Made by a program: the position numbers and the translations under genes
NCBI GenBank assembly: GCA_977862235.1
Contig: OZ374560.1
Location: forward strand, 2,418,001-2,482,000
DNA length: 64,000 nucleotides
From: Dudresnaya verticillata
Taxonomy: Eukaryota
Direction: 5' to 3'
Shown: positions 27,476 through 64,000 of the stretch, piece by piece
Layout: the number at the start of each line of letters is the position of its first letter
Position numbering within the stretch: position 1 is the first letter of the stretch
Notes under the pieces: model-generated
What the model was told of the DNA's origin: nothing
The model's database searches: none
The model's input: only the letters and a program-made list of their open reading frames with translations

Positions 27476-27477
27476 GT

Positions 27478-34029: not shown

Positions 34030-34034
34030 GCTAC

Positions 34035-34797: not shown

Positions 34798-34798
34798 C

Positions 34799-37612: not shown

Positions 37613-37632
37613 CCGGGCCGAGATCTTCGGTC

Positions 37633-40600: not shown

Positions 40601-42026
40601 GCGATGACTTCTGCCAGACCATTCTTGCCACGCGAGCTGGGCTGGGACGACCCAAGAAACCTCTCTTCCTCGAAGGGGCTGATGGGGTCCTCTACAGACG
40701 TTGTCCGACAGATGGCCAGAAACAAATAGTGCTTCCAGCCTCGTTACATGGCCGCATTCTCCAGTTGTGTCACCATACCGTTCTGGCAGGTCACCCTGGC
40801 CAGAATCGAATGTATCAGACTCTTCGACGGACATACTATTGGCCGCACATGGCCGCTGATTGCCTAGCAACGGTTCGAAACTGTGGACATTGCGCGAAGA
40901 ACCGGATTCGTCGTCTCCGACATACATCGAAGTTACAGCTGTTCCCGGCCAGTCAACCATTAGAGAGTGTGGCCATGGATCTTCTCGGGCCTCTCCCCAT
41001 AACTAAGAAGGGGTTCGAGCACATACTAGTCATTACATGCCGCTTCTCGAAGCTCACTCAGGTGGTGCCGTTGACGAAAATAACCGCCTATAATGTGGCC
41101 ACGGCGTTTTGCGTTCACTGGATTTTCAAGTACGGTGCACCAAAGACAGTTATTACGGACAACGGTGGGCAGTTTGCGGCCAAGTTTTTCCAAGCGGTCT
41201 GCCGACAATTACAGGTGGCCAACATCTTCACAACGACATATCATCCGCAAACGAATGGCCAGGTGGAAAGGTACAATCGAACATTGGCCGCAATGCTGAG
41301 GAGCTACCTGAATGAACATCAGACTGACTGGGATGAGTACGCTGCGGCATTGACGTATGCTTATAATTGCCATATACATCGTTTGAATTGGTTCTCAGTC
41401 GGCCGCCGAGTCCATTCTTACTTGAAGCTACGTTAAACCGGCCAAAGCCAACAGGGACTGTGAAAGAAGCGTTCTTACGCCGACTATCAGAGGCCGTGGA
41501 TAAAGCTTCGGCCAGTTTAACTCGCACACAAGCGCGCTACAAGAAGGACTTTGACCGCTCAGTTAGAACGGGGAATAAAATGCTGGCCGCAGGGGGGTTT
41601 GTCTTCCTAGGCAACCCAGAAAAGTAGCCAAAGAAACTAGAGCATCATGACGAGGGGCCATACAAAACTAAAAGCAACGATGGCCGTACGTTCGTCATCG
41701 ACAGAGCTGGCCAACTGGAGCGTGTTAGTTCGGACCGAGTAGTAGCCGCGCCCAGGCCACAAGGGCAACCGATGGCTACGGAGACATTGGCCAGTGCCGC
41801 GTTGGGAAACCTTCCAGAAGGCGTCGCTGCGACGGCCGATGAATACGTCATTGACAAACTCACTGATATGCGCGAGGATTCAACTGGCCAGCGGTGGTTT
41901 CAGGTCAAGTGGTATGGGTATAATGGCCGAACGTGGGAACCCGAGGCTCTTCTGCCGGCCACGTGGGTATCCCGCTTCTTCGCGCGCTTGAAGCGCCGAG
42001 CTACGCCGGGCCAAAACAGTTCCTAA
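37633..42026 (+). pseudogene. pol: Gypsy-2 pol (PR-RT-RH-IN-chromodomain) with stops and frameshifts
   Basis: VLDTCSG, FCVDYRRLN, TGA at 39337 in place of W, YLDD, DASA, integrase core, and chromodomain EYVIDKL..VKWYGY..TWEPE (41840-42000). Confidence 0.95.
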
Positions 42027-42849
42027 GGTCAACATCGACATGGCCAGGGAAGTCAAGCGAGAGGAGTCAGAGTCTGGCCAAAAACTTGTGAAAACGGAGA
42101 TGCGGGGTGGTTCTGGACGGAGGAAGGAGATGCTGGGTGACAAAATACCCCGGCTGAAACCCCGTCACCAAAAACACGACGGCGGTGTTTAGGGTTAACC
42201 CAGAATAATGTAAGCTGGCCAATCACGTGAGAGAACGTTGCGGCCAGCAAATCTCCCGGTGTACGCCAAAATTCAGTGGGTGTAAATGGACGGTAGAAAC
42301 TGTCTCATCTTTTGCTGCCTTCTCCAAGTAACTCTAATTTCCACGCGTCGTGCTCCCAGGCAGGGGGGTTTTGCGCAGAGTGAGAGGTCAGGGGTAACAA
42401 CGATAACCCCTACCGACAACAAGAAGGAAATTGTCCAGAGAAGAAGACATGGCCAGATGAAGTGCTTGAAGTCGATGAGACAAAGACGAGCTGGCCGTTA
42501 CTTCTCCTTCGGCACCCGGAAGAAGCCTGTGCTCATGAGCATTGGCCAGAAGCAAGACCTACTGACCCGGACGAACAGAGGCCATACGGCCCCATTTGAC
42601 TAGTAACTGGCCACGATAACATGCAATATTTTTGGAGGTAACCAGTGCATTTTAACTCAAGACTGGCCGGACAGACTAAGTAACCCCCAAAGACAAGGGG
42701 GGCTGTCCAACATTAGACGCACTAACTTGGCCACCAACTTTTGATAACGTAAACACAAGACACAGGAAATCACAAGACTAATAATAACACATTGGCCAGC
42801 ATAACAGCACAAGACGAGCTGGCCAACTACTAATCCAACACCTTGACAA

Positions 42850-45800
42850 CTAACGACCATAAGGGCTTGGTGAGCGAGGAGAACCCGAAGCATAGGGCTC
42901 TCTGCTCCTTGACTGCGAAGGCGCATGAGGCGCTGTCGCGGGAACACGTGGGGCCGTCGCAGGAACGGTTGGCGGTGTCACAAAAGGCGAGGTGGCCGGC
43001 AGAGATAAGCTGCCAGGAACATGGCCAGGCTGAGCAACATTGGCCACAGGGGTCGGCGGAGCCGACACAATCGGACGAGTTGGCTCTCGTTGATAATCGG
43101 CCGGTCGAGACGGCGCACGTGGATGACTAGTGATATCTCCAGCGTGAGATGGCGTGGGGGTTGTGGCTGGTGCCACTGAAACCCCGGGATATTGCGGCAT
43201 AGCCGGCGCAGGCGTAGGCAAGGAAGACAGAGGAAACTGAGGCATCTGGCCAAAGACAGGGGGCGCATAAGCTGCGCGCAAACTGGCCAGTTGATGAAAT
43301 CCACGATTGCACTCCATTTCAAGTAAGGCCTGTTGATTATGCGTCTCGTCGCACCAGCGATCGCACTGCCTCTTCCACTCAAGACCCTGCTCGTTAGATC
43401 TGGCCAGTGACTCCTTTGTGGCCCGCAACTCGGCCTCGACCTGATCTTTCTGTCTTCTAACATTGGCCAGCCGCTCTTCACCCCGGCTGATCACCTCCTC
43501 CACTTCATCAACATGACGCCGTAGGCGGTTGAGTTCATCGGTCTGGCCACGCTTTGTGTCGCTGAGGCGGCCAAGGCTCTGGTTCAGCTGCCGCAAGATA
43601 TTAGCGAAAAACATTTGGTTAACATGGCCGCGCACAGAACGTTCGGCCACCACATGCGGATGAGGGTGCAAGAGGGGGGCCCGCACGATGGAAGCGTCGT
43701 TGGCCACTTCAACTCCAAAGCTACTGCCATGCCGAAAAGTCACTTGTTTGTTCCAGTCGAAACCGCAATAATTCTCATCATGGCCAGCCCTGCGTTGAAA
43801 CAAATGGTCCCGGTGCAGCACTGTGTCGACCAACGTCTCATAAAACGACACAACATCTGGCCAATACACATGATTGAACTGATGCTGATGCTCCTGGCTG
43901 ACGGGGAGGTAGGTAAGATCTTTCACCACCTCGACCCGTCGAGCAATGGCCTGAGAAGACATCCACCACATTCTATTCGACGCCTGTGCTTCGTAGTGAA
44001 AGAAGATGCTGGCCATTACATGAAGCTCAATAACAGCCGTCTCCTGGAAGCACTCAACCCAGGTGGGGTCGAGGGCATGACGACGATACTGGCCAACAAC
44101 ATAGTAAGCCAAAGGACTAAGCAAGCTGGCCTCGCCTCTCGATGGCCACTCCTTCCAAAGAAAAGCGGGAACGCTAGGGAAGAACTCAACAGGGGGCCAA
44201 AAACCTTCTTGGCCGCGAGTACTTCCATGGTAGACATAGCTACCACCCGTGCGATGAGCCAGCCAATCTCCCGGCGCTATGATGCGACGAAGATCTGTAC
44301 TGGCCATTTTTTCGTTTCGCACGGTCGTCTGTTCCCAGCGCTCTAGCATCCACGAGTGAGGGAAGGCTTAATACCAAGTGGAAGTGCAGGGATAGACGTT
44401 GGACTTGCCCTTGAATCAACCAAGCTCTGTGGACATACATTACGTCTTGCGCACACAACAGGAAGGCCCGGTCGCACTCGATTTCCGAAGGGATCCAATA
44501 GAGATGGCCATTTTCGTGCGACTCGCGATATTGGTGCCACGCCTCGCCCAGAGAACAGTGGCTTTCACGAATGCGAATCATGTCCAACTTGTCACTGTCG
44601 GCCACTAACTCGGTATAAGGTATATCTACGCGAGGTAACTTCGGCCAGATAGAAGTGCCTGGCAAACGTTCGTCCAAAACCAACTCGGGGCCATTTTGAT
44701 CTTCTAAGCCCGGTGGAATGTCGGCGCGGAAAGGCACAGCAGCACGAGTTTGCGAAGCTGGCTCGCGATCCGGATGCGTCGGGGCAGAAGGTCCAGTACT
44801 CGAGCTTGGGTTCTCCTGGCCAGTCTTGGTGATACCCACAGTTTTTTCGCGCGGTATAACTTCCTTCCCGCGAGGCTCTTCACTCGGGCCAGATGACTTG
44901 GGCTGCACACCTGCAGAAGGCGTAGAAGAAGACTGGCCAGTTTTAAGCTCATCGGCGTCGGGGAGCAAAGCCACAAATCGCCGCCGATCGCCGTCGGACA
45001 TAAGGTTGGCCGGCGGGATAGGTGTGGAAGCATCGACGTCAATAAATTCGTCGCGAGATATCGGGCCAACTTCCTTAGGGGGCAGCCGCTGCTTCTTGGC
45101 AGGAGGACCCTGAACAGCGGGCTTACCAATGTTTAACTTGGCCAGCTCACGCGCACGACTCGCAGCCGTCGGCATGAAAGGCGAAGGCGCCGAGCGCAGT
45201 CGTGGTGTAGATTTCCTCGAAGCACTTGGGGTTGCCGAACGTGACGACTTTCGCGGCACGGGGATATTGGCCAAAGCTTCTGGGGCCTTCTGCTCCAACT
45301 TATCTCCTTTCTTCTGCGCTGGCCCAATCTTCTCAGCGCCTCCAGGTACCTCTTCCTTGCTGGCCAGTGGTTCTTCTCGAGCGGGCACAAATACCATGGC
45401 CGAATCAGAAGCCTTGGGTTGAGCCGAAGCTACTTCTTCAGCTGCCGCAGTGGTAGCTTGAGTAACCAATGGACGATGGATGGCAATCACAGCCTTCTCA
45501 ATAGCGCTGGCCAACGGCGGTGGAGTAGGATTAATGGCCGTTGGCACAGAAGTGCTTGCGGCCGGCGTCAACTTCTTCGCCTCGAGGCGCTTCACTTCGG
45601 CCTGCACCAACCCTTTCTCAGGCGCTCCTGCTATCTTCTGGCCAGTTTTTCTCGTCTCCTTCGCTAGCGGGCCGACGATAGGAGATGCAGTCGGCTTACC
45701 CTTTCCGAGTTGGCCTGTTGCAGCCGCTGCCTCCTCCGACGAGGATGATGCGACGATGGTCACGCTGCGCACCACCTTGGCCTTCTGCGCATCGGCAAGT

Positions 45801-46240
45801 TTCTTCTTCAGAATGGCCAGTTGCTGCTCCTCAGCTTCGCGCCTCTTCTGACTGGCCGCTATCTCCTGCATTAACTTGTCGGTGCCAACGTCGGGCGTAG
45901 CTTGCACCATGGCCGGGGTTGCAGAGGCAGCAACACTCTTCTTCTGGGCAGTTTTGAGGGGCTTCTCCACCGCGGCCGCCTTCGCAGCAATCAACGGATC
46001 GTTAGATGCACGACTTGGGGTCTTGGGTGCTGGGGCAGAAGACGCCCTGGGCGTCTTCATCGCACGCGGCCTCGAACTCTGGCCAGTCTTCTTCGTGGTC
46101 GCCTTCACTCTGGCCACAGCGACTTCTTTGTTGCTCGACGGCGGTGTGGATGATGAACTAGAAGAAACGGTCAGTCGTACAGTCTTCTTCTTGGCCGACG
46201 CGGTGCGGCGCGGACGCGCTTTCGCAGGGCCACCCGCCAT
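42850..46240 (-). CDS. Antisense extra ORF of Gypsy-2, unknown function (two overlapping frames)
   Basis: ORFs 44240-46240 (666 aa, Lys/Ala/Pro/Ser-rich) and 42850-44349 (499 aa: aromatic domain, coiled coil, Pro-rich tail). Probably one frameshifted gene. Confidence 0.7.
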
Positions 46241-46478
46241 CGAGAGCGAACTGGCCAGGTGCGCACGATGGAAACCGAAACGAAGGAAGACGCGCGCAAG
46301 TTGTCAAGAAGCGAGAACGCCCGCGCAATGTTTTGGCAAGTGTTGGTAAGAGGAAGCGTGGTGTGGGCAAGATGGTGATGGCCGAGTGCAGCGAGAGGGG
46401 TAGCGGCGCGGATCACGCGCGCTGATATGGCTAGATGAAACCCTCGCGGCCAGGAGTCCGCCCTTGCGAAGGGGGCTC

Positions 46479-47241
46479 TGTGGTGCAACGGCAAGGGGGC
46501 CACCGAAAGGAAGCAACTCGACGGGCCAACTGTACGATCGGCCCAACCAAACGAAGACACTTGGCCAATGAAGCCGTGCCGTCGGGGCGCGGACGGCGGT
46601 GAGCGCGCGGAAGTATGAAACGTGGCCACCGACTGTACACGTGGCTCACACGTGGCCACCTACGACACCGAAGCGCACCATGTGGCCCGCTGTACACGCA
46701 TGATCTGATTTTGCGACCAGACACAAATCGAAATTGGATTTGGCCGCACAGTGAATCAAAGGGAAGACAGTGGAAAAATCAAGGGAAAATCTAACTCGCA
46801 TGGCCAACCACTAACGCACAAGTACTTGGTTTAGTCTCGCAAGGGCCTTACATTGGCCCGAAGCCGGAACGCAAGTAGATATTATGGCCGACCGGAGTAA
46901 CCTCGGCCACCATCTGTAGAATAGCTCTAGATTAGCTCAGATGGCCGATTTTGGGCCTACTTAGCTGGCCACACACTACGGCTAAGCCGAAAAAGGTATG
47001 AAGCCGTCCCGCCAGAGGTTGGGAGTAAAGTTAGCAACTGAACCCCCGACTTGGCCATTTTACGTCCTCATCACGGATACTGGCCACGACTTCGTCTGCG
47101 CGCTCCCGCTTTACCACGCTTGCTGCCGGCGCGCAGGTCCGTTCTACGTTCGGCCAGTTTCTACGCAATCCGACAGGTCTTTGTGGTCTTCTTGGGGTCT
47201 CGTTTGGCTGCCGTACGCGGCGGTGCTCTAGAGATACTGCA
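46479..47241 (+). repeat. Gypsy-2 3' LTR
   Basis: TG...CA, preceded by a purine tract. Confidence 0.96.
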
Positions 47242-47246
47242 GCTAC

Positions 47247-48100
47247 GAGGGCTTCGCAGAGCTCCTTATGGGCCCTAATAGAACTTCGGACCGTATAAGT
47301 TAAGTTCATACTTGGTTGCCCTTCCGCAGAGAACTCGAATCTCTCTCTCCCTCTCGCTGTTGCACTGGTAGGTGCAATACCAGGGCCATCAGTGTGTATT
47401 GGGGCAAGAAAAGTTGGCGCGCAGTTCTCTAACGTGCAGTATTGCAAAACGTCCAGCGTGGCATCCAGCAGAGAGAGGTCTTGTTCGACATGGAAACCGT
47501 GACGTAACTCTGCGACCCAGTGTTGCGACGAGATTAAATCTCTGCTCCCATCAGAACAGCTATTTTCGGAGTCAGTGATTAAGTCGAGCAAATCGGATTC
47601 GTCCGACTCCGCTCCCGCTTCGATATCAGCTGTATCGATTCTGTTTAATCGCAACTTGAATAATACTCTTAGTGTTTCAGACAACTCTTTGTTCTCCAGC
47701 TCACAACCTACCTGCTTCTGCACGCATTCTTCGTTATGACCGACGCTACCTCTGGAGGTAGAGCTGAGGCGGTAGCATACATCCCTGTCCATACAATTCC
47801 GTAAGATATCAAGTCCGGATTCTGTCAAGCCGCGTTGTCCACTCAGTTTTAACGAAACCACTTTCTCCATCTTGGACAGAGCAAACCTTGCTAGCTTCAC
47901 AAATAACTTCAGGGCCTTAATCTGATCAGGTCTTCTCAGCAGAGATGACTTCAAAGATCGTTTCGGTTTGGGGATGACAGTACGCAGACGGTCTTACTGC
48001 GGGAGCTTGGCCACAATTCCAGCCGATGTTCCGTCCAGGACGATTCCTCTGAACTGAAATGCCTCTTGAGTGCAGAGATATCAGTATCGGAACTGAGTCC
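47247..48100 (-). pseudogene. KDZ transposase, middle part
   Basis: RGIVLDGTSAG (first catalytic Asp candidate). Joins in frame to 34029 when Gypsy-2 is removed (..CEALVA|IKDC..). Confidence 0.7.
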
Positions 48101-48104
48101 CAAG

Positions 48105-49277
48105 AACACAAATTTCGCCGGCTACAGAATTTCCAAAACAGAACAGAATTTTTTGAGGGTCCTTGAATCCCGGCGTTCGATAGCGCGTTGGAAAGGGAGC
48201 CCTACCCTGAGAATAGTGGTGCAAACAGATCGGAGCAAACGCAAATAGTTTCGGAGTTATGCGCTCCGGCATATGGGCCCCCCCGGGGTCGAAAGTTCCC
48301 GAAACTTGTGATTTTTCCGAAACGTTCCAATTAAAAATTCCCCAGAAATTGATTCTGCCCCGTCCCGCCGCCCGCGCCCCCGCCCCCGACCGCACACCGC
48401 ATTCTGGCGACTTCCCGCCGCATTCCGACGCGCTCGGACGTGGCTTCCCACCGCATTCCGACGCGCGCTCGGCCACCTCCTCACGTCCGACAGCCACTAC
48501 CACCATCACCCTTCCTGGTGCTGTTACTGGCCGACACATTCCGCATTCCGGCGCGTGCGCACGCGCTCTGCTTCTGCCTTGCGCGTAATGAGCCGCGCTT
48601 CCCCACCCCCTCCCAGACCCGTAGTGCCGCTCCCCGCCCCAGTCCAGACTGTGACCGCACTCTGTCTCACGCTCCCTGCCGTTCACCGACACCTCGCCGT
48701 CACCCTTCCCCGCTCACCGCGCCCGGCCGCATTCTGACACGTCCACATCAAGTTGCCGCATTCGGGCGCACGGTCAGCCCCTCCCAGCAGTCTCCCGACA
48801 CGCCTCCCTCACCCTTCCCCGCGCTCCTGCGCATCGCGCCCGGCCGCATTCTGACAGGTCCTCATCAAGTGCCCGCATTCTGACGCACGGTCAGCCCCGC
48901 CCAGCAGTCCCCCGACACGCCTCCCTCACCCTTCCCCGCGCTCCTGCGCACCGCGCCCAGCCGCATTCTGACACGTGCTCATCAAGTGCCCGCATTCTGA
49001 CGCATGTTCAGCCCCGCCCAGCTGTCCCCCGACACGCCTCCCTCATCCCTACCCCGCCCCCGTGCGGCAGCCCCGCCCAGCTGTCCCCCTACACGCCCCC
49101 CTCAGTCCTACCCCGCCCCCGTGCGGCACGGCCACCCGCATTCTGACCCGTCCTCACAACTGGGCCCACTACCCGTCCGACCTGGTACACTACCAGGTAG
49201 CTAAGCCACTTGCGCACCCGCGGTTCGGACTTAACTTGTGGCGTAGACTGACGTTACAGGCGTCGATTTCCCTTGCG
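48105..49277 (+). repeat. Left TIR with 117-bp tandem units and CCGCATTC motifs
   Basis: Reverse complement of 61803-62792. Tandem units start at 48727, 48844 and 48961. Confidence 0.92.
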
Positions 49278-49456
49278 GTTCTGCACAATGCCAGCCTGAC
49301 CCCATTGCATTCTGTTGTCTGCGCCGCGTTTATTGCGCCGCAGCTGAGGACCATGCCATACTTCAATGGGGCACATCCCCGACTGTAGACCGCCAAATGG
49401 AATGAAGCGCATTGCTGTGCTCATGGGAGAAGGCCACCACTTTACTATATCTAAAG

Positions 49457-49987
49457 TTAGCAATCGCTGCTATCATGCTTCCGCATATACAGCCCTTCAC
49501 AACTAGACAGTTCATTGTTCAGGCTCCTCATGATGCACATCCTCACCTCCGGTTTCATTGCGCGGCTGTTGGACATGTAGAATTTGGTGCAAATCAGACG
49601 TGTGTAGCGGTCCAGTTGATACGCGTTCTCTCCGCCCCTGTGCAGCGTTTCGACGATCGCGAAGTCTATAGCATGGGCTGCACCGTGTACGTACTTGCCC
49701 CTTCCCACGAGAAAGATTTTCTTCAGCATCAACCTGTACAACTTTTACAAAGCTTTCTGATGGTGGGAATGCTCCATCATCGTCTTGTCTCCGTAAAATT
49801 GCTGTGATGATTCCCAAGCCATTTGGGCACGATCCAGGTCATTGTGGTTGTCCAGAATGTCGTCGTCACTGCTAGGGCTTTGGTGCGTCCAATTTCGTGC
49901 CTCACGACTAAGATCTTCCCCCATCCGACGTTTAACGGCGTTGTACAGCTTTTCCACATCCAGAATCATGTCATCTATGGTCTCCAT
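49457..49987 (-). pseudogene. Decayed cargo ORF, unknown
   Basis: Two same-frame ORFs (49745-49987 and 49457-49741) separated by one TAA. Confidence 0.35.
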
Positions 49988-50486
49988 ACAGCGTTATTCT
50001 GGTCACAGCAGATTATGGTGGTGAACGAACACTTCGTTTCATCTCAGCTCTCTTTCCGAAATGGCCGAGGCCTTTAACTGCGACAGGATCACTGCGTTCC
50101 TGAACAATACATAGTCCATCTTTCCACGATCTCACGGGTGTCCATTTCATATGCGTTGGAGACAGCCCTGGGCGCACTCCGGTACGTAGTCGATCAATCA
50201 CTTACTGCCAATATGCCGCAACGTTGCCAACAGCTGCAGCAGTACGGTACATGTGCCACACTCGCGACAGCCTTCCGTGACAGATTCTGTTTGGTGGACC
50301 AAATATAACCCCCGCGTTCATAGTACGGCACGTGGAAGCACTGGCGTTATTCGAGTAAATGGTGCCTGAACGACGTCGAATTCATGGATCATGGCGGAAG
50401 CAAGACGCAAAGACATGTTCAGAATACGGATGCTCGATAAATGTTCAATTCGGCCTATGACAATAGTACTGTACTGACTATAATTC

Positions 50487-53400
50487 CTACCCAATCTTTT
50501 TCATGTTGTGCAAGTCCCACGAGAACAACAAGCCGTTTAGGCCCTTGAGATTGGCAGGAGGGTCCTCTAGTCCCTTCAATATATACGGATACGAACTTAG
50601 CTCATACTCCGCCATGACCTTCAAACTGTACAGGACCACAAGATGCTCCCCTGGTTTGGCAGATTCTGACAGATCGTGGTCGTGCAAGCGTTCATTACAG
50701 TTCCCTCCTGGAGTCTTTTCAGGATGCAACACGGCCTCCCCCACTTCCTTATCATCTGCAAGAAGCGTGACTCTGTCTCCGGTCTTGGGCATTGCACAAG
50801 GTTCAGGTGTTTTCCTTCTCCTGCACCTTTCATTCAGCTCCACACTTCCTACAACTATGTCTTCACTCCTGCCGTGCTTCTCGATACTCTCTTCGCGGTC
50901 ATCCAATACGTGCTCGGACGGTGTCTTCAGATGGGACATTTCAGGTCCCTTCCTCGTTACGGAATGGTTTGTTGGTTGAGCAGAATCTGTTTTGACAACA
51001 CTACCTCTTGCTGCCTCACCGATACCATTCAGTTCGTCATGAGCACTTGATTCCAAACGTTTACGACCTGTCTTCATTTCATATGCTTCCGTGGCAAGCC
51101 TACGCAAACGTTCAGCCCCCAGCTTGAATTTTCGACCTGTGATTCGATTAGTGTACACCGACGATCTGTTCTGAGAGCTGCAATCCCAGTCGTCATGGTT
51201 CCGCTGTGCATATCCAGAACTGACCCGCCCTCCGGACAGAATGTTGTCATTATCTCCACAAGTACTTCGGGAGACTTCTCTTCGACCAGAACTGGGGACT
51301 TGGTGCCTGGGCGTAGCAACTTGTGTTTCGGTGTTGGTAGAGAGGACATGCACGCGAATTTCCGCTTTTCTGGGGAGGGGATGCAGTGATACTCGCTCCT
51401 AAGGTCGAACGAGAACCCTCCGCCATGCTGACCTGGGGCACGCGCCATGACGGCTATTTCCACACAGTTCTGGGGCATATCGCTCCCCCGATGTTCCTGC
51501 ATGGTCTTGGGGTCTTTGGAGAATACGAATGGGTATGCTGGGCACACGAATTGTGCCTTCTTCAGAGCATCGTGGAATATACTGAAGTTCAGGAATGACG
51601 TGAAAACAAACGACCACCCCCCTGCTACAAGTACGCGCCTCGAGAACTCAACTATCTTCTTAATGTCTTCCTCGCTGAGGTAATTATCGAATGACCTCCC
51701 CGACTTAGACTGCGATTTCGGTGTACCGTATGGTGGATCAGTGAGGATTAAATCGAATCGTTTGTCACCTTCCTTCCTTACGGTACTGTCGTAGCTCTGC
51801 CATGTCATGTGAAAGCATGTCAGTTTCATTTCCGCAAGATAATCTATTGGAACAGAAAGCGATCCGTCCTCCACCGGCACAGGCTTAGTACCCATGTTGA
51901 GGCGAACAGACTGCTTTGATGACACAGTTGATGCAGTGGGGTCTGTGGGACTCTTTTCCGGTACAGAAAGGTCTTTGGCTGCACATGCAGCTTTAGGGTC
52001 TGCGTTCTGGACGGGTGTCTGTCCAGATTCTGCTGGTTCGCGACCTTCTTCCCTTTTCGAATTGGTTGATGTTGCTAAGTCTAAAACCTCGTTGTCATTA
52101 GAGATTCCGGTAGCGTCCACCCGCGGTGACAATGTGCAGTCCAAATTCTGTTGACCGTCAGAATCTTTTGTTCCACATTCTTTGGAACCCGGGCGGGTCA
52201 TGACAGCATCATCACGTCTGCCTTCTGTCGAATCCATCACAGTTTGCAGATCTTTGTACTTCTGCAACTTCACTGGGGCCTCTTCCGTACAACACTCTCT
52301 GTACATCTCAACTATTGTTTTCAACAGTGTACGGTCATTACCTCGATTCCTGATGACCTCAACGTCCAGCTTCGTAGTGTGTAACAGGTTTTCTCTTAAT
52401 TTACTCATGCCTGACGGCCATTCTGTCCTCTCCCTCATCGCTTCAAACTTCCGAGTCTCGGAAAGGGCGGCTGAAGCTTTCAAGAATTGCTGTTGCGTGT
52501 GTTTGGCCGAAGCAGGTTTGAAATTGTGTGTCCTTGACACCTCTCGAAGCCTGTACAGAGTAGCTATTTGAACAGTAATGCCGTTGTCAGAGCTGCCTGC
52601 ATTCATAAAGGCCTTGGAAGACTTGATGGAACTGACGTGAATGAAGCGTCTGTATACTCTACAATCCAGATTCTGCATCGCGACATTTGAGTCTATGGCC
52701 TTTCCGGAAGCAGTCAACAGTTGCATAGTTGCTAGTTCAGGGACCTCCTCCTTCATTATCTTCTTAATTACATCGATAACGCGACGGTCAAGACGAAGAA
52801 CGGTTGCCGCTGTCTGTTTGATAGTGTTTTCCGATAGGTGACTGCATCAATCATATGCTTCGGCAACTGCCGTCGCAGTCGGAGTCTTCCCATTACTGGC
52901 TTCGAGACGGTCTGCCTCTTTCCTAAGACCGCATATCTGATCGTAAAACGTGGTCTCTACAAAAAAGCTGGAGTCGTGCTTTCTGTTCTGATGACGAGCC
53001 AGTTGCTTCAGAATCTGGATGTTGTGCCCCCCTTTAAGCACAGTGGCAGTCAAAGCAAACTCCTTCCATGTCTCCCGGTCTTCATCGATTAGCTCCATAA
53101 TGGCGATAAGTCGATGCATGCCATCAACAACTCCGAACCACTCCGACCGACTGAAGGCCTCTTCTTTCACCTGTTTCTCTGTGTACTCTGTCCCATCCGC
53201 ATTCCGTTTAGCTCGGAGAAACTCAAAAATGAAACTCCTGAAGGGACCTGTTAGGCGAGCCAGTATGGACGCATCAGAACCGGCAATGTACCCGTTGTTG
53301 CAGTTAGCGCTCCTCGTCCCACCACCCCTAAAAATCTTCTTGAGCCTCTCAACACCGGATCTCGAGATGTCCCTTATATCAGTCATCGGAACACAGGACC

Positions 53401-53518
53401 TGGGGTCTATTCGAATGTTGGTAGACCCCTCCATGACATCTCCAAACAGTGCCTGTGCCATATCCTCCTTCCTCAAGGGCTCACTTGACCCCCTGCTCCG
53501 CTTCTTGCGCTTCGACAT
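50487..53518 (-). pseudogene. NLS-ParB/Srx-HTH-beta-class N6A/N4C DNA methyltransferase-C-terminal domain fusion (~1010 aa; one TGA, one frameshift)
   Basis: MSKRKKRSR NLS and VVDGMHRLIA ParB motif. FDLILTDPPY (51728-51739) precedes EKSPE and VLDMHSGTMTTGIAA, the beta-class order. The TGA at 52847 is in frame with ORF 51074-52756. A 1-bp loss near 51130 links to FKLGAERL in ORF 50487-51353. Confidence 0.88.
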
Positions 53519-54409
53519 GGTGCGCGAGAGAAAGACTCGCTGTGCACGTGAAAACCGCTCTCCTTGAAAGAGTACGGAAAGGGTTACTGCATGTCTGATG
53601 AGTTGTCCAGATTCTGTTCAGAAAACCTTTCGCAAGAAGTTCTTTACGTCCCTGGCTCATGTTTGCAGGGTGCCGTTTTCGACTGACACCATACGGGTTT
53701 TCGACACACCGGACGGCGGGAGTACGACATGGATGTGCCGCAAATTCCGACATGGCACGGGAGGTCACGTGGATTGTTCACCGGGTGTGGGCAGTCTCCG
53801 TCAGAACTTATTCTTAGCACAGGCCGTACAGTTGGAATTGGTAGAATGCAGGTTTCACAAGACCTGCAGGGCGAGATGTAACAAAGTCAATTAGGGTATG
53901 CTGCTCGCTGTCCCAGCCGACTTGGCCGGGCTTTGAAGTTGAGGCCAGCCTGGCCAGGTGCTGATACTGCGAGTAAAATAGCATGCCACACACGGTGTCG
54001 GTGAGTACTGGCACACCGTTGCCAGCGGCGTGCCAGCGGGGGGGCGCGGCGGTCAATTTACGAGGAACAGGTTCTCGGGGGTGGGAGGTGTCAACACCTG
54101 TGGGTGCAATATCAGTATCAGGGAACAGGTGGGGCGAGAGCGCCGGGCCAAATAGCTGTTCTTTTGATGTGGCAAATTGCGCGCTGAAAAACCTGTATAG
54201 ATTTTCTGTCCAATGATATTGAATAAGCTTGTAAAAGGGTCTTTCCATTGGGCCGCCTTCAACACCTTTACAGCTTCTGAATGCGGCCAAGTCACATTGC
54301 TATGAGAACAGATATTGCGCTTCACGGCAACGCAGGAGCCCAAAGTGCAATATCAGTATTGGGGAACAGGTCCTGAGAGCCAGCAAACTCCACAATCTAT
54401 CTGGCCTCG

Positions 54410-55360
54410 GCGCTGCTCCCGCTCCTGCTGCTGCTCATCTTCCCGTTCCACGCACAACAACCTGCACCCGTCGCACCTGTACCTCGTTCATCCGCAGTCC
54501 GTGCTGCGCCTCGTCCGCCGCGCCGCCGACACCCCCACGTACCTCGCCGTGGCATCCGCCCGCCTGCAAGTCCTGCTCGACCACTTGCGTCGCTTCGCCG
54601 CCGAAACAATCCCCGCCAACGTCCGCGTCGACACGCAGCTCCACCCTCGCTTCGCCGTCGGGGTCGTCGCGCTGCACAACCTGCGGCACTTCGCCTCCCT
54701 CGCGCGCGTGGACCACTGCCAAGCCGCCGTGCAAGCGCTCAACGCCTTCCTGCACGAGTCCCGCGCAGACTCGCGCAACCCACTCCCGCACCCGCCCGCC
54801 TCGCTCTTCGACCACGCCCCGGTCGACGCGCGCCAGCCTGACCATGCGCCCGTGCCGACCACCGCCGCCGCAGACCTGGCCGCGCAGGTGACCATGGTGA
54901 TCCGCATCCGCGATGTGCTCCACAACACCCCACCCCACCGCCCGCCCCTTCACTATGTCCCACTCCGCGGAGCCACACTTTCGCCTGTCCGTCGTCCGCC
55001 GCAACCGCTTCCCGGCCACCTGGGTGCTCATCGTCATCGCAGACTTTTCCTGGTGGGTCGCGTTGTAATAGCGTACACGCTATCACCAAGGACGTCGCGC
55101 CAGGCCGATATGGCCTACCTCAAAAACTTGCCGCATGTGTTTGGGTGCTCGCTGGACGCGAACGGCGGCTGACGCTTCACGCTTGGCCTTGAAACAGGAG
55201 GCGAGCAATTTACTCTCATTGATGGCATGAACGAGGGCGAGGCGCTGTATGTCGCCTGTGGTGAAGCGGTCGTTTCGGAGTGCGGACGACGGTTGAGCCG
55301 ACCCGCGCCCGGCGCAGTGGTGAGCTGGCGCCAAAAGCCGAAACGGAGTGCAGCGACACA
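54410..55360 (+). pseudogene. GC-rich captured gene fragment, unknown
   Basis: Abrupt GC3-rich codon usage within ORF 54315-55172; the reading continues past the TGA at 55170. Confidence 0.35.
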
Positions 55361-57921
55361 GTAGCACTGTATACCTTTCTGGAGTCTGCGCGCACCACGA
55401 ATAGGAGTCAAGTAGTTGATTTATTTGTAATTAGGTAATTATAATCATGCTGTACAGTACGTAGTGTCAGCCGGCCAATAAGAATGCCGAGCATGTCCGC
55501 AACGGTGACCGGGACCAGTAGGGCCGGACCCACCTGGTGGACCAGACCCATTGGGGTCTGGCCCACACGGACCGGACCGCGGGGCGTATCTCCCAGTATA
55601 TTAATGGGTGGCCACCGCGAGTCCTACAGTAAACGGGTACGCAACCCTGGGCAAAGGGACTTACCCTAAGCCTTACCCTCATACTCCTTTACGGTTTCCC
55701 CTCGCCAGCCCCGTGCACTGATTCCTCTTACCTCCGTCCCGGTGTAGCTTTCCTGGCACTGTACCGTCCCCCTTGTCTGTTGGGTCCCTTTACTCCTTAC
55801 AGGTGTTGCCGCTCGAGGTACTCCCTTCGGTCTACGAACTAAGCTCTACCACCCCGGTGCCGTGTGAGATCACTCCTTATTGGTATTTCCTGATCAGCTC
55901 TCCTTACATCCTTACAGGTGTGTCACCACATCGCCCATGTCCTGCGCGAACAGTTTCCGTAATGCTGTGGCATAGTATAGAAAGTGCCGCAAATGATGGT
56001 GCAGGCAGCCTGCTAGGAACGCAAGGTCAATTACAAAAAGGAGAGCGTGTATTGTCTTGCAGAGGGAGTCAAGGCCGTTCTGATTTCCGTGGTTCGGCTT
56101 GTAAGGATCGAATTGTGGTTGTTGTCGGAACCACGTTCCCTTACCTTTCTTTGAACAGTTTTACCCAACGCACCAGCTTCGTCCAGTGTCACGTTCCCTC
56201 CTCTTCGCAGGATGCGGTAGTGCTGTTGACTCTTTTTATTGTTTGGTAGGCTTATAATTGGACTTTGACTTCGCTTGGTCAGAGTGTAGGAAGCACAGAA
56301 TCTGTTACATTCGCCATCCATTCCACACCAACACAACAAACCATCAGCTGTAGCAGGCGGTGGGTTAGTCTCACGTGTTCACCTGTTGTGCCATCCTTCA
56401 CCTGCAATTAATTTTCGCTGTCCAGCCCTCTTTCTTCTGCCTGTTGTCTCTAGAGGTGAAGATAACTCTTTGACAGAGCAACAAATTCACGAATCTATAG
56501 ATAAATATGGTAACCACGTTTGTGAAATGGTGCGCTGCTTCATTGAGATTGTGGTATTGCCTACTTTTGTTCAAACGTGATGCTACTCAGGCAACGACTG
56601 AATAAAAACAAACAACACTGCGCGCGAGTTCAGTTTCTTCGCCTTATGACAGCGCAGCGCTTCGAGCTGGTTAAAAGCTGGACGTGATGCTTTGCCGTTA
56701 ATAGTTTGAATACAGTCTGTAGAAAACGATAAAAGCTGCATCACTGCCGTGAGCGGATATCCACATTCAGATTCCCCATCAGAAATGCCGTATTGTCGAA
56801 TCTGATTCAAAGTCTCAACTCATCTGTTCCTACTCTGGCGTTCAAATATATTCTTCACGAGAGGTGAGGTCACTTGTTTGTTAAAGTCTGACCACATCTG
56901 TACGACTTTCTGCCTTGTGCTGTTGCGACTATTGTCACCACTTAAGCCTCGCTGAGCGCCCCCAAACATATCCATTATCGTGATCGTACCGACAGTCAAG
57001 GGATGCCACTTGCTTCGCTATCAATATTTAGCAAGTAATCGCTGTCGACTTGCCCTGTCTTCACACTCTTGATCCTTGTTACGCCTAGCGCTCTCGCCCC
57101 GTTCGGGAGTATTCCCTACAATGGCAGCCTGTCGGAGAGCCGCTTGCCAACAGCGGCAAAGTCCCAGACGCGATCACAGCTAGCGTGCATCGACTTGGTC
57201 AAGCTGTACCGAGGCACAACTGCCGGTCTGAAAATGAATGCGCACTTCAAATGTGTCCGTTGCAACAAAACACTTCGTGTTCGGGGGTTCCTTGATGATC
57301 AGGTTCATTTGTTTGCTGAAGTTTCCGACGCCACTCTACTAGCGCCACATGTCCATCGTCTTTGTCCTGAGCCCTGTCGTCTGCTTCGCCGATCCTGAAA
57401 CCCTCATGCTACTGCAGTACCTTAAGGCATTGAGACAACTGTAGCAGCAGCATTTCCATTCGTGCTGTGCCGCGACTTCCTTGGAAGCGTCTGCAGACGA
57501 TATCAACTCGTGATGTAGGCGCACTGCAACTGCCAGTTCACCCCAGAGTGACCGTCAGCTGTATGTGTCCGCCTCTCACAAGCTGCAGCTTTTGTGGCTC
57601 CGCATGCATGCGGAAAGTTGTACCTGAAATGTAATTGGCCAAGTGCAGAACCAGAATATGATCACAAACAGAATCTGGGTTGCAGAATAACCCAGATGCA
57701 CCTCGTGCAGCCACTCGTGCCGCTCCACGGGTGTGAAGCCTCAAGAGCAGGCAACAGGCGGCGCGCCGCGGTATCACAGAGGTTATTTAATGCGCAAGCG
57801 TTTCGCTGCGAAGGGCTGCGCCTCCCCGCCAGGTTGGCCAGGTGCCTTAACAGACTGCAAAGTGGGCGCTCTGCTGAGAGCGTGAAGGGAAGACAGAACG
57901 AGTTGCACTCTCACAAGCTGT

Positions 57922-60900
57922 GTGCAGATACCGTCGCAGGACATTTTGAACGACATGGAAATGAGCCCGGCAACTACGGATTGCGCTGAGCGAGAAAATG
58001 AAGCAAAGAAAGGAGGAGGCAAAGCACGCGACGAAGGGCGTGTTGCTCTTCTGTATGACAGGGAAATGGTCGGCACTGCTATTGTCAAGAGACCGGGGAC
58101 AAAAGAGGACACAGACCAGTCTGGCAGGTATTGTGTCACCCTGCATGGCCACAAATTGTCTCCCAGTCAGAAAAAAGGGGAGAAGCTGGTTGTGGTTTAC
58201 CGAGCACAAATCATGCAACCGTATGAGAAACTTCAGTACAAATACAAGTACAAGACAACGGACTCCGTTCCGCACACACTTGCGGAGATGGGTGGGGGTT
58301 TTCATGCATGGGATGTGAACTACATTCAGGAGCTCGGCAATCGAGAAATCGCGCCGTTGTGCCAGAGACGGTTGTACTCTCCACGAAAGGGCATACTTCG
58401 TCGCAGAATTTACCCAATACTGAGCAGTTGCCCCCCGACGTCAACTGCAGAAAACACTGCCGCAGCGGTGGCCCCTACCGCATCGCCCCAGCAGATGACA
58501 CCAGTTGACACGACCAGGCCAACATCACCCCTCCAACAAAGTGCGGGGCCGCAAGCGGATGCCGCAGCGCGGTCAATTCGAACAACACCCCCGCCTTGCA
58601 ATGCTCCGAGCAGTGAGGAAATGAGTGAACCGCGAGAGCATTTGAGGGAGGCCAGCCAGGATGATGCGGACGCCGTACGACACGTGTCGGAAAGTGATGA
58701 CGATGCGTATGACCCTTTTCAGAAGTTGCAGGTCAGGACGAAGCGAAAGTATACTTACAGGAAGAGAAAGCAGCGGACATTCAGTGGGAGAGGAAGTCTT
58801 CAGAAGAGACGTAGGCACCTGTTCAAAGACCTGGAACGCGCAAACACGCAGTCAATGAGATGCTGCATCGGGAACAAGTGCTTCCAAAGTGTGTAGCAAG
58901 TGTACGTAAAGGCGGAGGCGCGCAGAATTGCCGGAATGAACGTAGAAGCAAGGCGAACGTATCTATGCAATCTGGTGGACACGAGCAAGATGAAATACTT
59001 TTCAACCGCCAGCCTGTCTGTTACAACTTTTTGGAGCAGGCCTTTGGATTCTCCCGCGACTTACAGACGTCTGTAAAAGGCACGAGGCAGTCCCGGAAGC
59101 TGCAACTTCCAAACAATGCGAGGCGTGATACCTCATCTCATCAGCAGGATACTATCATTTGCTTCCTTGAACGTCTTGCAGACAGCACTGCTGAACCAAT
59201 GCCCGATAATGGGGAGTCACACCTCCCCTACTTTCAGAAATCAGTTGTGTACGACATCTTCAAATTGGACCACACCAGGCTGTACAGAAACAGGGATATT
59301 CCGTGTCAGAGTTACTTTTACTTTGTATGGAAACACAGTTGCTCCCGCATTGAGGTGCGAAAGACACACCGATTTGCAAAGTGCAGCGAATGCGAACTCA
59401 TTCGCGAGCGACTTGCTCAGGCAGGGACCTCTGGAGCAGGCACTGAACACCTGCATGAGCGGCGCAACATTCACTTGAAATTCATACAGGCAGAGAGACG
59501 TGAATATCAGAAAAATGTGAGAAGGCGATACTATTGCCGCAAGAGTATTGCTCCCTCATAGTGGATGGTGCTGATCAGTCCGCATTTGGACTTCCCCATT
59601 TTGTGGTGTCGTCCAAAGCCAGCATTGGGCATGCCATGAAAGCGAAACTTATTGGGGTGCTTGAACACAGGGCTGAGAAGCGTCTGCACTTGTACAGAAT
59701 GACCGGTGAGTTCGAGACCGGCGCGAACCACATTATCGAGGCGTTGCACAGAACTCTTTCGGACAAACAGTCCAGAGGAGAGCTACAAGGGACTTTATTT
59801 CTACAAGTAGACAACTGTTCGAGAGAGAACAAAAATACCTTTTTGTTCTGATACCTGGAGAGTCTCGTTGCATGGGGTGTGTTCCAAGAGGTCTTCGTGT
59901 CTTTCCTGCCCGTCGGGCACACTCACACAGATATAGATCAGGCCTTTTCGTGCACGGCACGCCGGCTTAAAGTTCGGGACGCAGTCACAATGACTGAATT
60001 GATGGAAGAGCTTCGGCAGTCGTACAGTCCAGAACCAGTTGTCAGTCGCATGCTTCAAATTGCGAATTTCTCAGGCCTCTGTCGGCAGGAAGGATGCATT
60101 GGTAATGTTGAGGCATTCACGACCTATCGCTATTTCAGATTCCACCGTGTGGGTCCAGCTGCGACGGAAGAGGCAGAATCTGTTGCAGCTTTCGTGACAG
60201 GCTGTCAATTGAGAATGACATGCGCGGATGACTGGGTTCCGTTGCAGACAGGAGGAGAGCATAAGGGGTTTATACTATCCCCTCCTGACCTTGGCAAGTG
60301 TGGCGCACGGGGGACCGGCTTTTATTTCCTCGCCATGGGCGCCGATAACCTCGTCGACCGACGGACGGTCGCCTGAAACGGCTCATTCGCCGTTGGCGCG
60401 AACACGTCATCGACGATGGGCCTACGGACGCGCGGGCGCCGCCACCCAGCGCAGCGCACGCCCGACGCACTGTACGGCGCAACGCTGCAGAGCGGATCCG
60501 GATGATGCATCGAGATCAACGAGGTGTAAGGGAGTCGACTGTCGGATTGGCCCGGATCCCGATCGAATCCGGATCCGACATCCGGATCGGACATCGGGAT
60601 CCACTGCAAGGGAAACGCGCCTGTAATACGTGTCAATCGCGATCCGAATCCGGATCGCTTACAGCACCGTGCGAGCACGCCTCTGTGAGACGCACGCGCC
60701 AGCGCACAGCGGCTGCATTGTCCCGGGACGTGTCAGACACACCTCCACGCGACACGCGTCCCGGGATCCCGCGCAATACGTCATGCAGCCGCTGCACCGC
60801 GGCGCTATAGTACTACTTAGGCACCTCGTCCAGGACGTAACAGTAAAGCCCCGTCAAGCCGGTTTGAGTCTAGACTTCCCCTCCGCGTCAGCGCGCACCC

Positions 60901-61742
60901 TACCGCTGCTCGGAAGCAAAAGCGTCTACCCATCCGTGTTTCCACGTTTCAACTCGTTGCTAACGTGTTTCCTTTTGGGTTTCCTTGCCCCCTCGTCCGC
61001 TCGCCCTGGGTGTTTACAGTCCGCCCTAGGCGTGTTCTACCCGCTCGACCCAGTTCGCTACTAGCGGCTACCCACTGGGCTCCCGATCGGCCCGGAGGCG
61101 TTCTCCGTCTTCGATACGACGTTTGCACGACAGCAAGACGCCAGCAACAGTGGTCAAATCGCCACCAGATTTGAAGGAAGTCAACGACAGGTTTCGTTCT
61201 GAAGAGACACGTGTGAATGACACGGGAAAGATGAGGGAGCTGCAGGAATTGCGGGACCACGTGTACAGAGATAGGCTGGAAACGTTTCATTGGGATATGG
61301 GACACATATTTGAGACAAGGGGAAAGTACAGCGGAAGAGCGGCGCTGGAGTACGTACCGGAAGGGGATGACGGTCAGGAGGAGACTGTGACCCCCCTTCA
61401 GACCTGCAGTACACGAAGAACTACTTCGGTGCCGTTGTGAGGGAGAACGCCACCGCGCGATGCCCATTTTGGGTTGGACAGATTCTAGATTTTGTGCAGG
61501 ACGCTACGGGAAAGGCTACTGAGCTGTATATAAGATGGTACGAGGCGTATGACGGTAAGGGTGCTTGGGACGGAAAGTACAAGGCATCCATATACTCAGC
61601 GACTAAGCAGCCATGGACTGGTACTGTCGGCGTCGCGACCATAATGGTCGAATTCGAAGCTCTTACGAAGAGACGTCTACCGCAGCTCGTCCAGAAGAGA
61701 ATCAGAGAATCGACATTGTTAGTTAGGTATGCCGGCTCTTGA
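57922..61742 (+). pseudogene. Sola1/DUF7869-like DDE/D transposase, frameshifted and interrupted by solo LTR
   Basis: RFAKCSEC, LIVDGADQS, LQVDNCSRENKN and FLPVGHTHTDIDQAFS across ORFs 57922-60298. It resumes at 61138 and ends with an FWVGQI..IRWYE module. Confidence 0.8.
60299..61132 (+). mobile_element. Solo LTR of the Gypsy-1 family (834 bp)
   Basis: Reverse complement of 16306-17140 with many substitutions. TSD GCAAG (60294-60298, 61133-61137). Confidence 0.96.
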
Positions 61743-61802
61743 TACGAGAAACAGCTACAACCAGTAAATTCTACTCTCAGGTTGATGCAGCACACGAGAA
61801 AT

Positions 61803-62792
61803 GCAAGGCCATTCGACGCCTGTAGCGCCCGTTTACGCCACAAGCTAAGTCCGAACTGCGGGTGCGCAAGCGGCTGAGCTACCTGGTAGAGTACCAGGTC
61901 GGGCGGGTAGTGAGCACAGTTGTGAGGACGGGTCAGAAAGCGGGTGGCCGTGCCGCACGGGAGCGGGGTAGGGGTGAGGGAGGCGTGTCGGGGGACTGCT
62001 GGGCGGGGCTGACCATGCGCCTGAATGCGGCAACTTGATGTGAACGTGTCAGAACGCGGCCGGGCGCGGTGCGCAGGAGCGCGGGGAAGGGTGAGGAGGC
62101 GTGTCGGGGGACTGCTGGGAGGGGCTGACCGTGCGCCCGAATGCGGCAACTTGATGTGGACGTGTCAGAATGCGGCCGGGCGCGGTGAGCGGGGAAGGGT
62201 GACGGCGAGGTGTGGGTGAACGGCAGGGAGCGTGAGACAGAGTGCGGTCACAGTCCGGACTGGGGCGGGGAGCGGCACTACGGGTCTGGGAGGGGGTGGG
62301 GAAGCGCGGCTCATTACGCGCAAGGCAGAAGCAGAGCGCGTGCGCACGCGCCGGAATGCGGAATGTGTGGGCCAGTAGCAGCACCAGGAAGGGTGATGGT
62401 GGTAGTGGCTGTCGGACGTGAGGAGGTGGCCGAGCGCGCGTCGGAATGCGGTGGGAAGCCAAGTCCGAGCGCGTCGGAATGCGGCGGGAAGTCGCCAGAA
62501 TGCGGTGTGCGGTCGGGGGGCGCGGGCGGCGGGACGGGGCAGAATCAATTTCTGGAGAATTTTTAATTGGAACTTTTCGGAAAAATCACACCTTTCGGGA
62601 ACTTTCGACCCCGGGGGGCCCATATGCCGGAGTGCATAACTCCGAAACTATTTGCGTTTGCTCCGATCTGTTTGCACCACCATTCTCAGGGTAGCGCCCC
62701 CTTTTCCAACGCGCTATCGAACGCCGGGATTCAAGGACCCTCAAAAAATTCTGTTCTGTTTTGGAAATTCTGTAGCCGGCGAAATTAGTGTT
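61803..62792 (-). repeat. Right TIR
   Basis: Inverted copy of 48105-49277 with fewer tandem units. Confidence 0.92.
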
Positions 62793-62796
62793 CAAG

Positions 62797-63800: not shown

Positions 63801-64000
63801 ACAGACTTTTCATCATCGCATTTGAATGCGATAGACGAGCGCATACCTTGAGAGACGTTGGGAACAGAATTGGCATACATAGAATCACAGGAGCACGTCA
63901 CGCTGAGAACTCCGGTCCCCTGCTTGCGAATAGTTACGCAAACAGGTCTAGGGGGCTTCTTCATGACTTGCCATAGAACTGCAATTGCGAGCTCATTAAC

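What the first reader, a model, noticed from the sequence alone, without database searches (positions are those of the whole stretch)
50487..53518. Eukaryotic DNA transposon carrying a nuclear ParB-HTH-amino-methyltransferase gene
Seen: inside TIRs and a TSD lies an intronless ~1010-codon gene with only one stop and one frameshift. It encodes a basic NLS, a ParB/Srx DGxHR domain, an HTH-like segment and a beta-class MTase (TDPPY before the DxxxGT SAM-binding motif), and is oriented head-to-head with the transposase. Established: ParB-MTase fusions are typical of phages and plasmids; DPPY enzymes usually make N6-methyladenine and sometimes N4-methylcytosine. Inference: a transposon-borne epigenetic writer that loads at and marks its own element, for self-recognition, anti-silencing or transposition control. 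I do not recall this combination being described for a Sola-like element, but could not check.
Basis: partly seen in the sequence, partly recalled or inferred. Interest (0 to 1): 0.92.

Follow-up and report, generated by a model that had tools for sequence, protein, structure and literature searches.

The report
Transposon carrying ParB-methylase helper gene
A broken 14.7-kb jumping gene carries, besides its transposase, a bacterial-style DNA-binding-plus-methylase gene that likely let intact copies bind and chemically mark their own ends, a design already reported in a brown alga, although more than half of the full-length relatives examined have lost the catalytic motif.

Summary
A 14.7-kb element (48105-62792; AACAC..GTGTT ends, 4-bp CAAG duplication, ~1-kb inverted ends with a repeated motif) holds a DUF7869 (Sola1-type) transposase and, on the other strand 4.4 kb away, a 1010-codon gene with one stop and one frameshift: ParB fold (GxxR), HTH, beta-class methyltransferase (DPPY) and a C-terminal SH3-like domain. 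Both genes are dead in this copy. The combination is not new: Sola1-1_Ec32 of Ectocarpus (PMC12477816, 2025) has the same layout and the same self-marking hypothesis, and red-algal PAG2/PAG3 genes are related in kind. What the tools add: intact relatives exist (51 full-length); six appear to share a contig with this transposase family; 29 of 52 have lost the catalytic motif while keeping the SAM-pocket aspartate, though the window's own clade keeps it; and the same ~95-residue domain ends the methylase and begins the transposase. Most likely a transposon-owned DNA-binding helper that loads on the element's ends and, in this clade, writes 6mA there (inferred, untested). New member of a known kind.

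The parts
48101..48104 (+). Left target-site duplication CAAG (4 bp)
   Evidence: sequence; same 4 letters at 62793-62796
48105..49283 (+). Left terminal inverted repeat, starts AACAC; 11 copies of CCGCATTC, partly in a 117-bp tandem unit; one 16-bp palindrome (48551-48566) and one 8+3+8 palindrome (49180-49198)
   Evidence: 11 observed vs 0.08 expected, max 2 in 2000 simulations; 4 in the other 61.8 kb
49457..50119 (-). Possible third, decayed gene (about 220 codons, 4 in-frame stops); no family or homologue found
   Evidence: six-frame translation; no Pfam hit near cut-off for two pieces; no tblastn hit from fetched proteins
50487..53518 (-). ParB-HTH-methyltransferase accessory gene (~1010 codons), broken by one stop and one frameshift
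53492..53518 (-). Basic N-terminus MSKRKKRSR, NLS-like (inferred from motif only)
52964..53431 (-). ParB/Srx-fold domain (about residues 30-185) with Box II GxxR (DGMHR, R136 at 53111-53113)
   Evidence: Box II definition from PMC12704722
52259..52963 (-). HTH (about residues 212-245; the stop at codon 224 falls in its turn) and a conserved helical domain (D285, R287 invariant in 52 of 52)
51149..51811 (-). Beta-class amino-methyltransferase domain: DPPY at 51728-51739, motif I DMHSGT from 51214
   Evidence: PF01555 E 5e-10; PDB profile hits 5hek E 1e-18, 8urk, CcrM
50490..50786 (-). ~95-aa SH3-like barrel, homologous to the N-terminal domain of the element's transposase
   Evidence: 36% over 103 aa, E 2e-16; hhalign 99.3%; model pLDDT 91; best structural Z 3.9
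57955..61742 (+). DUF7869 (Sola1-type) transposase gene, with the shared SH3-like domain at its start (58030-58341); 2 stops, 3 frameshifts, LTR insertion
   Evidence: PF25273 E 3e-15 and 8e-25; 63% to intact P0023
60299..61132 (-). Solo LTR inserted in the transposase, 5-bp duplication GCAAG; 94% like LTRs at 16306-17140 and 27478-28312
61795..62792 (-). Right terminal inverted repeat, ends GTGTT; 7 exact CCGCATTC copies
62793..62796 (+). Right target-site duplication CAAG
   Evidence: sequence

Best explanation
This is a decayed copy of a Sola1-type cut-and-paste transposon whose second gene encodes a phage-style ParB-HTH-methyltransferase helper that, in intact copies, likely binds the repeated sites in the element's own ends and likely writes N6-methyladenine there to favour or time transposition. 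Shown: TIRs, 4-bp TSD, transposase, domain order, catalytic motifs, a repeated end motif, intact relatives, and a domain shared by helper and transposase. Inferred: HTH recognises the CCGCATTC array or one of the end palindromes; the ParB domain binds an NTP and loads or spreads the dimer as ParB/KorB do; the methyltransferase marks nearby adenines; the shared SH3-like domain points both proteins at the same partner or place. Because many branches lose the catalytic motif but keep the rest, DNA binding is probably the core job and methylation an add-on kept in some branches, including this one.
For: Element anatomy. ParB/Noc/KorB are the ten best Foldseek hits and the top VIA hits. All 7 rows of the window's clade (SH-aLRT 98) keep DGMHR and DPPY. 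Best solved relatives of the family profile are adenine methyltransferases (5hek E 1e-18, CcrM E 5e-10) ahead of N4C enzymes (PvuII E 2e-3). Six of 25 helper-bearing contigs of 5.5 kb or more have exactly the length and source of a contig bearing a top-120 transposase relative, against 0.22 expected and at most 3 in 600 offsets. The shared domain is on 19 of 51 full-length helpers and 14 of 120 transposases. End motif 11 vs 0.08 expected. 13 of 17 long prokaryotic/viral relatives picked for length are ParB_N + N6_N4_Mtase fusions. Same layout and hypothesis in PMC12477816.
Against: This copy cannot work (stop, frameshift; also His where most relatives have Tyr/Phe in motif I). 29 of 52 rows lack [DNS]xx[YFW] in motif IV, with 6-7 minimum changes on the tree; only 24 of 51 keep the ParB arginine. 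One of the six apparently linked helpers (P0178) has QVPR. The repeated motif is not palindromic and could be the transposase's own binding site. No methylation, expression or binding data. Co-loss of the two motifs is not significant on independent pairs (5 pairs, median p 0.6).
Confidence: 0.5

Rival explanations
1. The protein is a non-catalytic transposition co-factor: a DNA-binding scaffold that pairs or condenses the long ends or recruits the transposase, like the second proteins of CACTA or Harbinger elements (recalled); the methyltransferase fold is used as a DNA- or SAM-binding module and its activity is incidental.
For: 29 of 52 full-length, uninterrupted relatives lack the catalytic motif yet keep motif I Asp (29 of 29) and the invariant D285/R287 of the helical domain (29 of 29); a QVPR member appears linked to a transposase; helper and transposase share a domain. 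Iyer et al. note that DIRS-borne methyltransferase domains are likely all inactive (PMC4738411).
Against: DPPY, the motif I Gly and the EK motif are fully kept across a clade at about 45-55% identity that includes this copy, which implies selection on catalysis there.
Confidence: 0.33
2. The enzyme methylates widely in the host genome, or methylates cytosine (4mC) or RNA, and helps the element indirectly rather than by marking its own ends.
For: PF01555 covers both N6A and N4C enzymes; PMC12477816 leaves the base open; phage relatives are annotated as adenine or cytosine methyltransferases; Iyer et al. propose RNA targets for other eukaryotic recruits.
Against: Fusion to ParB-HTH and a strongly repeated end motif point to site-directed action; DPPY rather than SPPY and adenine enzymes as best solved relatives.
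Confidence: 0.1
3. The gene is passive cargo, a host or viral gene caught once between TIRs.
For: Only one copy of the element could be examined; no genome is held; a 4.4-kb spacer with unrelated pieces lies between the genes.
Against: Apparent linkage to the same transposase family in six other contigs, a domain shared with the transposase, the same layout in Ectocarpus, and 251 relatives at E<=1e-30 among 50%-identity representatives.
Confidence: 0.05

Closest known systems
Sola1-1_Ec32 of Ectocarpus (PMC12477816; passages and one supplementary table row seen; the FASTA supplements could not be read)
   Same: Giant Sola1 element; accessory gene on the strand opposite the transposase; ~1100-aa ParB-like + N4C/N6A methyltransferase product; 4-bp TSD; AAC..GTT ends; same proposed self-binding and self-marking role.
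   Different: 21.5 kb with 282-bp imperfect TIR and AACCG ends, against 14.7 kb with ~1-kb TIRs and AACAC ends here. The passages seen mention neither a domain shared with the transposase nor catalytic loss. Sequence homology to the Ectocarpus protein was not tested.
Plavaka-associated genes PAG2 and PAG3 of red-algal transposons (bioRxiv 10.1101/2025.02.11.637652; passages and section 8 read; supplements not seen)
   Same: Transposon-borne PF01555 methylase and ParB-like DNA-binding domain, mobile among TE families, with repeat arrays proposed as binding sites.
   Different: There the methylase is fused to SET (PAG2) and ParB to a 2OG oxygenase (PAG3), in two genes; here ParB and methylase are one protein, and none of 44 scanned relatives has a SET or 2OG hit.
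Phage/prophage ParB_N + N6_N4_Mtase fusions (PMC12704722 passages and section 8; ParB-Tls loci in PMC4738411 passages)
   Same: Same two domains in the same order; 13 of 17 long prokaryotic/viral relatives picked here have it.
   Different: Only 20-40% identity over the methylase part; about 430-670 aa, without the large helical domain, linker and SH3-like tail.
ParB/Noc/KorB CTP-dependent clamps
   Same: N-terminal fold plus HTH, Box II GxxR.
   Different: Inserted and extended fold (best Z 9.1, rmsd 6.0); nucleotide unknown; no ParA or canonical parS array seen.
VANDAL/VANC anti-silencing (named in the Bostrychia preprint)
   Same: Transposon-encoded protein proposed to alter the marks on its own element.
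   Different: VANC removes methylation indirectly and, by recall, is unrelated in sequence; this protein would add a mark.

Membership tests
Sola1 DNA transposon | Terminal inverted repeats | tested here: met
   889 bp at 94.6%, longer with one gap
Sola1 DNA transposon | 4-bp target-site duplication | tested here: met
   CAAG on both sides; a 2-bp AA reading is formally possible; Sola1-1_Ec32 also 4 bp
Sola1 DNA transposon | AWWT/AWDT target preference (insect Sola1, PMC3845634) | tested here: not met
   TSD is CAAG against AWWT; one insertion only, and the Ectocarpus family is described only as biased to end in A
Sola1 DNA transposon | Transposase homologous to Sola1 (DDD catalytic core) | tested here: inconclusive
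   DUF7869 hit and DGADQ / QVDNC / GHTHxDID motifs; equating DUF7869 with Sola1 is from recall; no Sola1 reference sequence was available and no held paper names DUF7869; the defining paper is not held
Sola1-1_Ec32-type ParB-methyltransferase accessory gene | ParB-like domain and N4C/N6A methyltransferase in one ~1000-1100 aa protein | tested here: met
Sola1-1_Ec32-type ParB-methyltransferase accessory gene | Encoded on the strand opposite the transposase, inside the TIRs | tested here: met
Sola1-1_Ec32-type ParB-methyltransferase accessory gene | Sequence homology to the Ectocarpus protein | not testable with these tools
Beta-class N6A/N4C DNA methyltransferase (PF01555) | Motif IV (DPPY) before motif I, profile above cut-off | tested here: met
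   40 bits vs cut-off 26.7; D594 precedes D769
Beta-class N6A/N4C DNA methyltransferase (PF01555) | Methyl transfer to DNA | not testable with these tools
   no assay or methylome; this copy is broken
ParB-CTPase fold | ParB/Srx fold followed by HTH | tested here: met
   (Foldseek best E 1.7e-3, prob 1.0; ParB-family chains fill the top 14 VIA rows)
ParB-CTPase fold | Box II GxxR arginine | tested here: met
   DGMHR in the window; kept in 24 of 51 aligned rows that cover it
ParB-CTPase fold | CTP binding, clamp loading at a parS-like palindrome array | tested here: inconclusive
   one 16-bp and one 8+3+8 palindrome per TIR, but two other perfect 16-bp palindromes lie elsewhere in the element; the repeated motif is not palindromic; nucleotide cannot be predicted from sequence
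PAG2 / PAG3 of Plavaka elements | Methylase fused to SET, or ParB fused to 2OG oxygenase | tested here: not met
   no such Pfam hit in the window pieces or in 44 relatives

The most novel reading that the evidence does not exclude
A two-protein eukaryotic transposition machine in which a phage-derived, NTP-gated ParB clamp loads on the element's ends and is coupled to the transposase through a shared SH3-like domain, writing 6mA on its own element in some lineages and persisting as a pseudo-enzyme scaffold in most others.
Probability: 0.2. Interest if true: 0.85.

Novelty: new member of a known kind. Interest (0 to 1): 0.45.

Why it matters
No eukaryotic transposon has, in the papers seen here, been shown to write its own amino-methyl mark; the idea is in print only as a proposal. 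This work names intact, intron-free members of a clade that keeps both catalytic motifs (P0002, P0005, P0022), candidate target sites in the TIRs, and natural dead variants as controls, so the proposal can be tested directly. The repeated loss of catalysis and the domain shared with the transposase suggest the helper is a working part of the transposition machinery, and would make it a ParB-type clamp acting in a nucleus.

Tried and rejected
No whole genome is held, so other copies and empty sites could not be counted. Pattern scans of metagenome (41 loci) and viral contigs (24 loci) and tblastn of phages (6 records) gave only methylase-domain matches at 20-40%; no eukaryotic locus to view linkage directly. 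Sequencing runs: one DNA run with a small share, no RNA holder listed; its short contigs lie on helper, spacer and transposase but none bridges genes; 3 of 10 listed differences in the helper gene are synonymous, too few and too shallow to use. The complex prediction between the two SH3-like domains was not available, so binding is unexamined. The SH3-like domain has no clear structural match (Foldseek none at E<=0.001; best Z 3.9, tied among many SH3-like barrels including the KorB C-terminal domain) and no Pfam hit; its likeness to the Tnp1/En/Spm-like domain of plant CACTA elements is recalled and untested. Its tree is unresolved: one origin for the transposase copies is not rejected (p-AU 0.59). 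Co-loss of ParB Arg and motif IV looks strong in raw counts (19/3 vs 5/24) but not on independent pairs: rejected as evidence. Host lineage: the flanking gene at 794-2167 has two unnamed relatives only, 28 cluster look-ups carried no names; a red alga is my guess from recall of TE content, not a result. Atlas search of the ParB part gave mostly unnamed clusters, one ParB_N cluster at 0.92 (35% of members). The 2-bp TSD reading was set aside for the 4-bp one. Literature searches: 0 papers; only PMC12477816; 0 papers; none showed the shared domain or the catalytic loss, but Iyer 2011, Repbase Reports, the Current Biology version of the Bostrychia paper and unread supplements may.

Full report
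Observation. The gene is real and at the stated place. Read on the minus strand from 53518 it has one internal TGA at codon 224 and one frameshift near 51140-51152, where an intact relative switches frame. The middle piece matches PF01555 above cut-off (E 5e-10), with TDPPY before DMHSGT, the beta order. A search found 8 relatives at 36-53% identity, five of them unbroken proteins of 868-1010 aa with the same layout. A profile search of 1.84 billion representatives gave 251 proteins at E<=1e-30.

The element. Self-comparison shows inverted ends of 889 bp at 94.6%, about 1180 and 1000 bp with one gap. The ends read AACAC..GTGTT (48105-62792, 14,688 bp) with CAAG on both sides; a 2-bp reading gives the same empty site, but the 4-bp one fits Sola1-1_Ec32 (AACCG-CGGTT, 4 bp). 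The left end holds CCGCATTC 11 times against 0.08 expected, the right 7 times. The transposase (57955-61742, plus strand) matches DUF7869, is 63% identical to intact P0023 over its core, and is broken by 2 stops, 3 frameshifts and a solo LTR with its own 5-bp duplication. That DUF7869 is the Sola1 core is my recall; no held paper names it. The two genes point away from each other but lie 4.4 kb apart. The element interrupts another transposase-like gene (weak KDZ hit). No genome is held and the host lineage was not determined.

Domains. A model of residues 20-423 from 87 sequences (pLDDT 94.5) has ParB and Noc chains as its ten best Foldseek hits (best E 1.7e-3, none at or below 0.001); VIA ranks KorB first (Z 9.1, rmsd 6.0, 196 aligned) and ParB-family chains fill the first 14 rows. 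DGMHR is the Box II GxxR whose arginine is needed for NTP binding, and the nucleotide cannot be told from sequence (PMC12704722, passages and section 8). The family profile's best solved relatives are adenine methyltransferases (5hek E 1e-18, CcrM E 5e-10); PvuII (N4C) scores E 2e-3. Prokaryotic relatives match only the methylase part at 20-40%; 13 of 17 that I picked for length from the hits are ParB_N fusions (12 above cut-off), which fits a phage-type origin but does not name a donor.

A shared domain. The last ~95 residues of the helper match the first domain of the element's transposase (36% over 103 aa, E 2e-16; hhalign 99.3%). It is present in 19 of 51 full-length helpers and 14 of 120 transposase relatives. 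It folds as an SH3-like barrel (pLDDT 91) with no specific match (best Z 3.9; Foldseek none). Its tree is unresolved.

Linkage. Contigs could not be viewed, but lengths were printed. Of 48 distinct lengths for 51 helper proteins, 7 equal a length among the top 120 transposase relatives (0.67 expected); among the 25 of at least 5.5 kb, 6 match, with the same source each time, against 0.22 expected and at most 3 in 600 offsets (data). The seventh (4334) is too short for both genes and so is chance. The 5.5-kb limit was set after the first matches were seen. This is indirect evidence.

Catalytic state of the family. I aligned the window protein with 51 relatives of at least 780 aa (of 52 such; P0013 dropped as a near-copy). 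Motif IV is DPP[YF] in 19 of 52, near-canonical in 4, and lost in 29 (EPPS, ALPS, DPFQ, QVPR and others). The 29 keep motif I Asp (29 of 29) and D285/R287 (29 of 29) but only 5 keep the ParB arginine, against 19 of the other 23. The tree needs 6-7 changes of motif IV; the window lies in a 7-row clade (SH-aLRT 98) where all keep DGMHR and DPPY; the co-loss is not significant on 5 independent pairs. 39 of 44 relatives scanned hit PF01555 and none hits SET or a 2OG oxygenase. The window copy alone has His in motif I, perhaps another lesion.

What is known. PMC12477816 (passages; one supplementary row; FASTA files unreadable) describes a 21.5-kb Sola1 family in Ectocarpus with an opposite-strand 1104-aa ParB + N4C/N6A methyltransferase gene and proposes self-binding and self-modification. 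The Bostrychia preprint (passages and section 8; supplements not seen) describes PF01555-SET and ParB-oxygenase accessory genes moving among red-algal TE families. PMC4738411 (passages) lists other eukaryotic recruits from phage ParB loci and inactive DIRS methylases. PMC6431247, PMC4455052 and PMC3845634 were seen as passages. Iyer 2011 and Bao 2009 were not seen. Searches returned no other paper on this combination, and those showed neither the shared domain nor the catalytic loss; unread supplements and Repbase may. Earlier notes of this scan report like elements in other genomes, some with dead motifs or palindrome arrays; they are unchecked leads, not support.

Mechanism and verdict. Most likely (0.5) the helper of an intact element binds its own ends through the HTH, uses the ParB domain as an NTP-gated loader, and in this clade adds 6mA locally, aiding or timing transposition; all functional steps are inferred. 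The main rival (0.33) is a non-catalytic scaffold, which the widespread motif loss and the shared domain favour for the family as a whole. Global, 4mC or RNA methylation (0.1) and passive cargo (0.05) are less likely. It is a new, dead member of a kind described in 2025; its worth lies in the family-level observations and in the intact relatives that make the proposal testable. Interest 0.45.

Noticed in passing
window 62797-63809, 47239-48100 and 33336-34028 (minus strand): The element sits inside another transposase-like gene (weak KDZ hit, E 0.008, below cut-off) whose frame runs on across the empty site; that gene is also split by a Gypsy element at 34029-47238 (LTRs 98% alike).
   Followed up: partly
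window 16306-28312: A second Gypsy-like element with 835-bp LTRs 99.6% alike, the source family of the solo LTR in the transposase.
   Followed up: no
P0002/P0023, P0004/P0029, P0013/P0028, P0144/P0040, P0150/P0064, P0178/P0077: In each of the six apparently linked pairs the shared SH3-like domain is found on exactly one partner (five times the helper, once the transposase), whereas the window has it on both. Could reflect truncated gene calls.
   Followed up: partly
window 49457-50119: Possible third decayed gene of the element, no homologue found.
   Followed up: partly
window 54104-54130 and 54345-54371: A 27-nt direct repeat (93% alike) in the spacer, followed by a GC-rich 288-codon open frame at 54306-55172 with no Pfam hit; possibly a nested insertion.
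   Followed up: no
window 55470-55860: Stretch in the spacer hit by high-depth contigs of run X1, likely a small nested repeat.
   Followed up: no
window 61392-61712: The transposase ends in a conserved beta-rich domain (WYE..Y..G.Y pattern); one of 14 relatives has a weak BAH hit (E 0.04), so it may be a chromatin-reader module.
   Followed up: no
window 794-2167: A 458-codon open frame with an N-terminal membrane-anchor-like stretch, no Pfam hit and only two unnamed relatives.
   Followed up: partly
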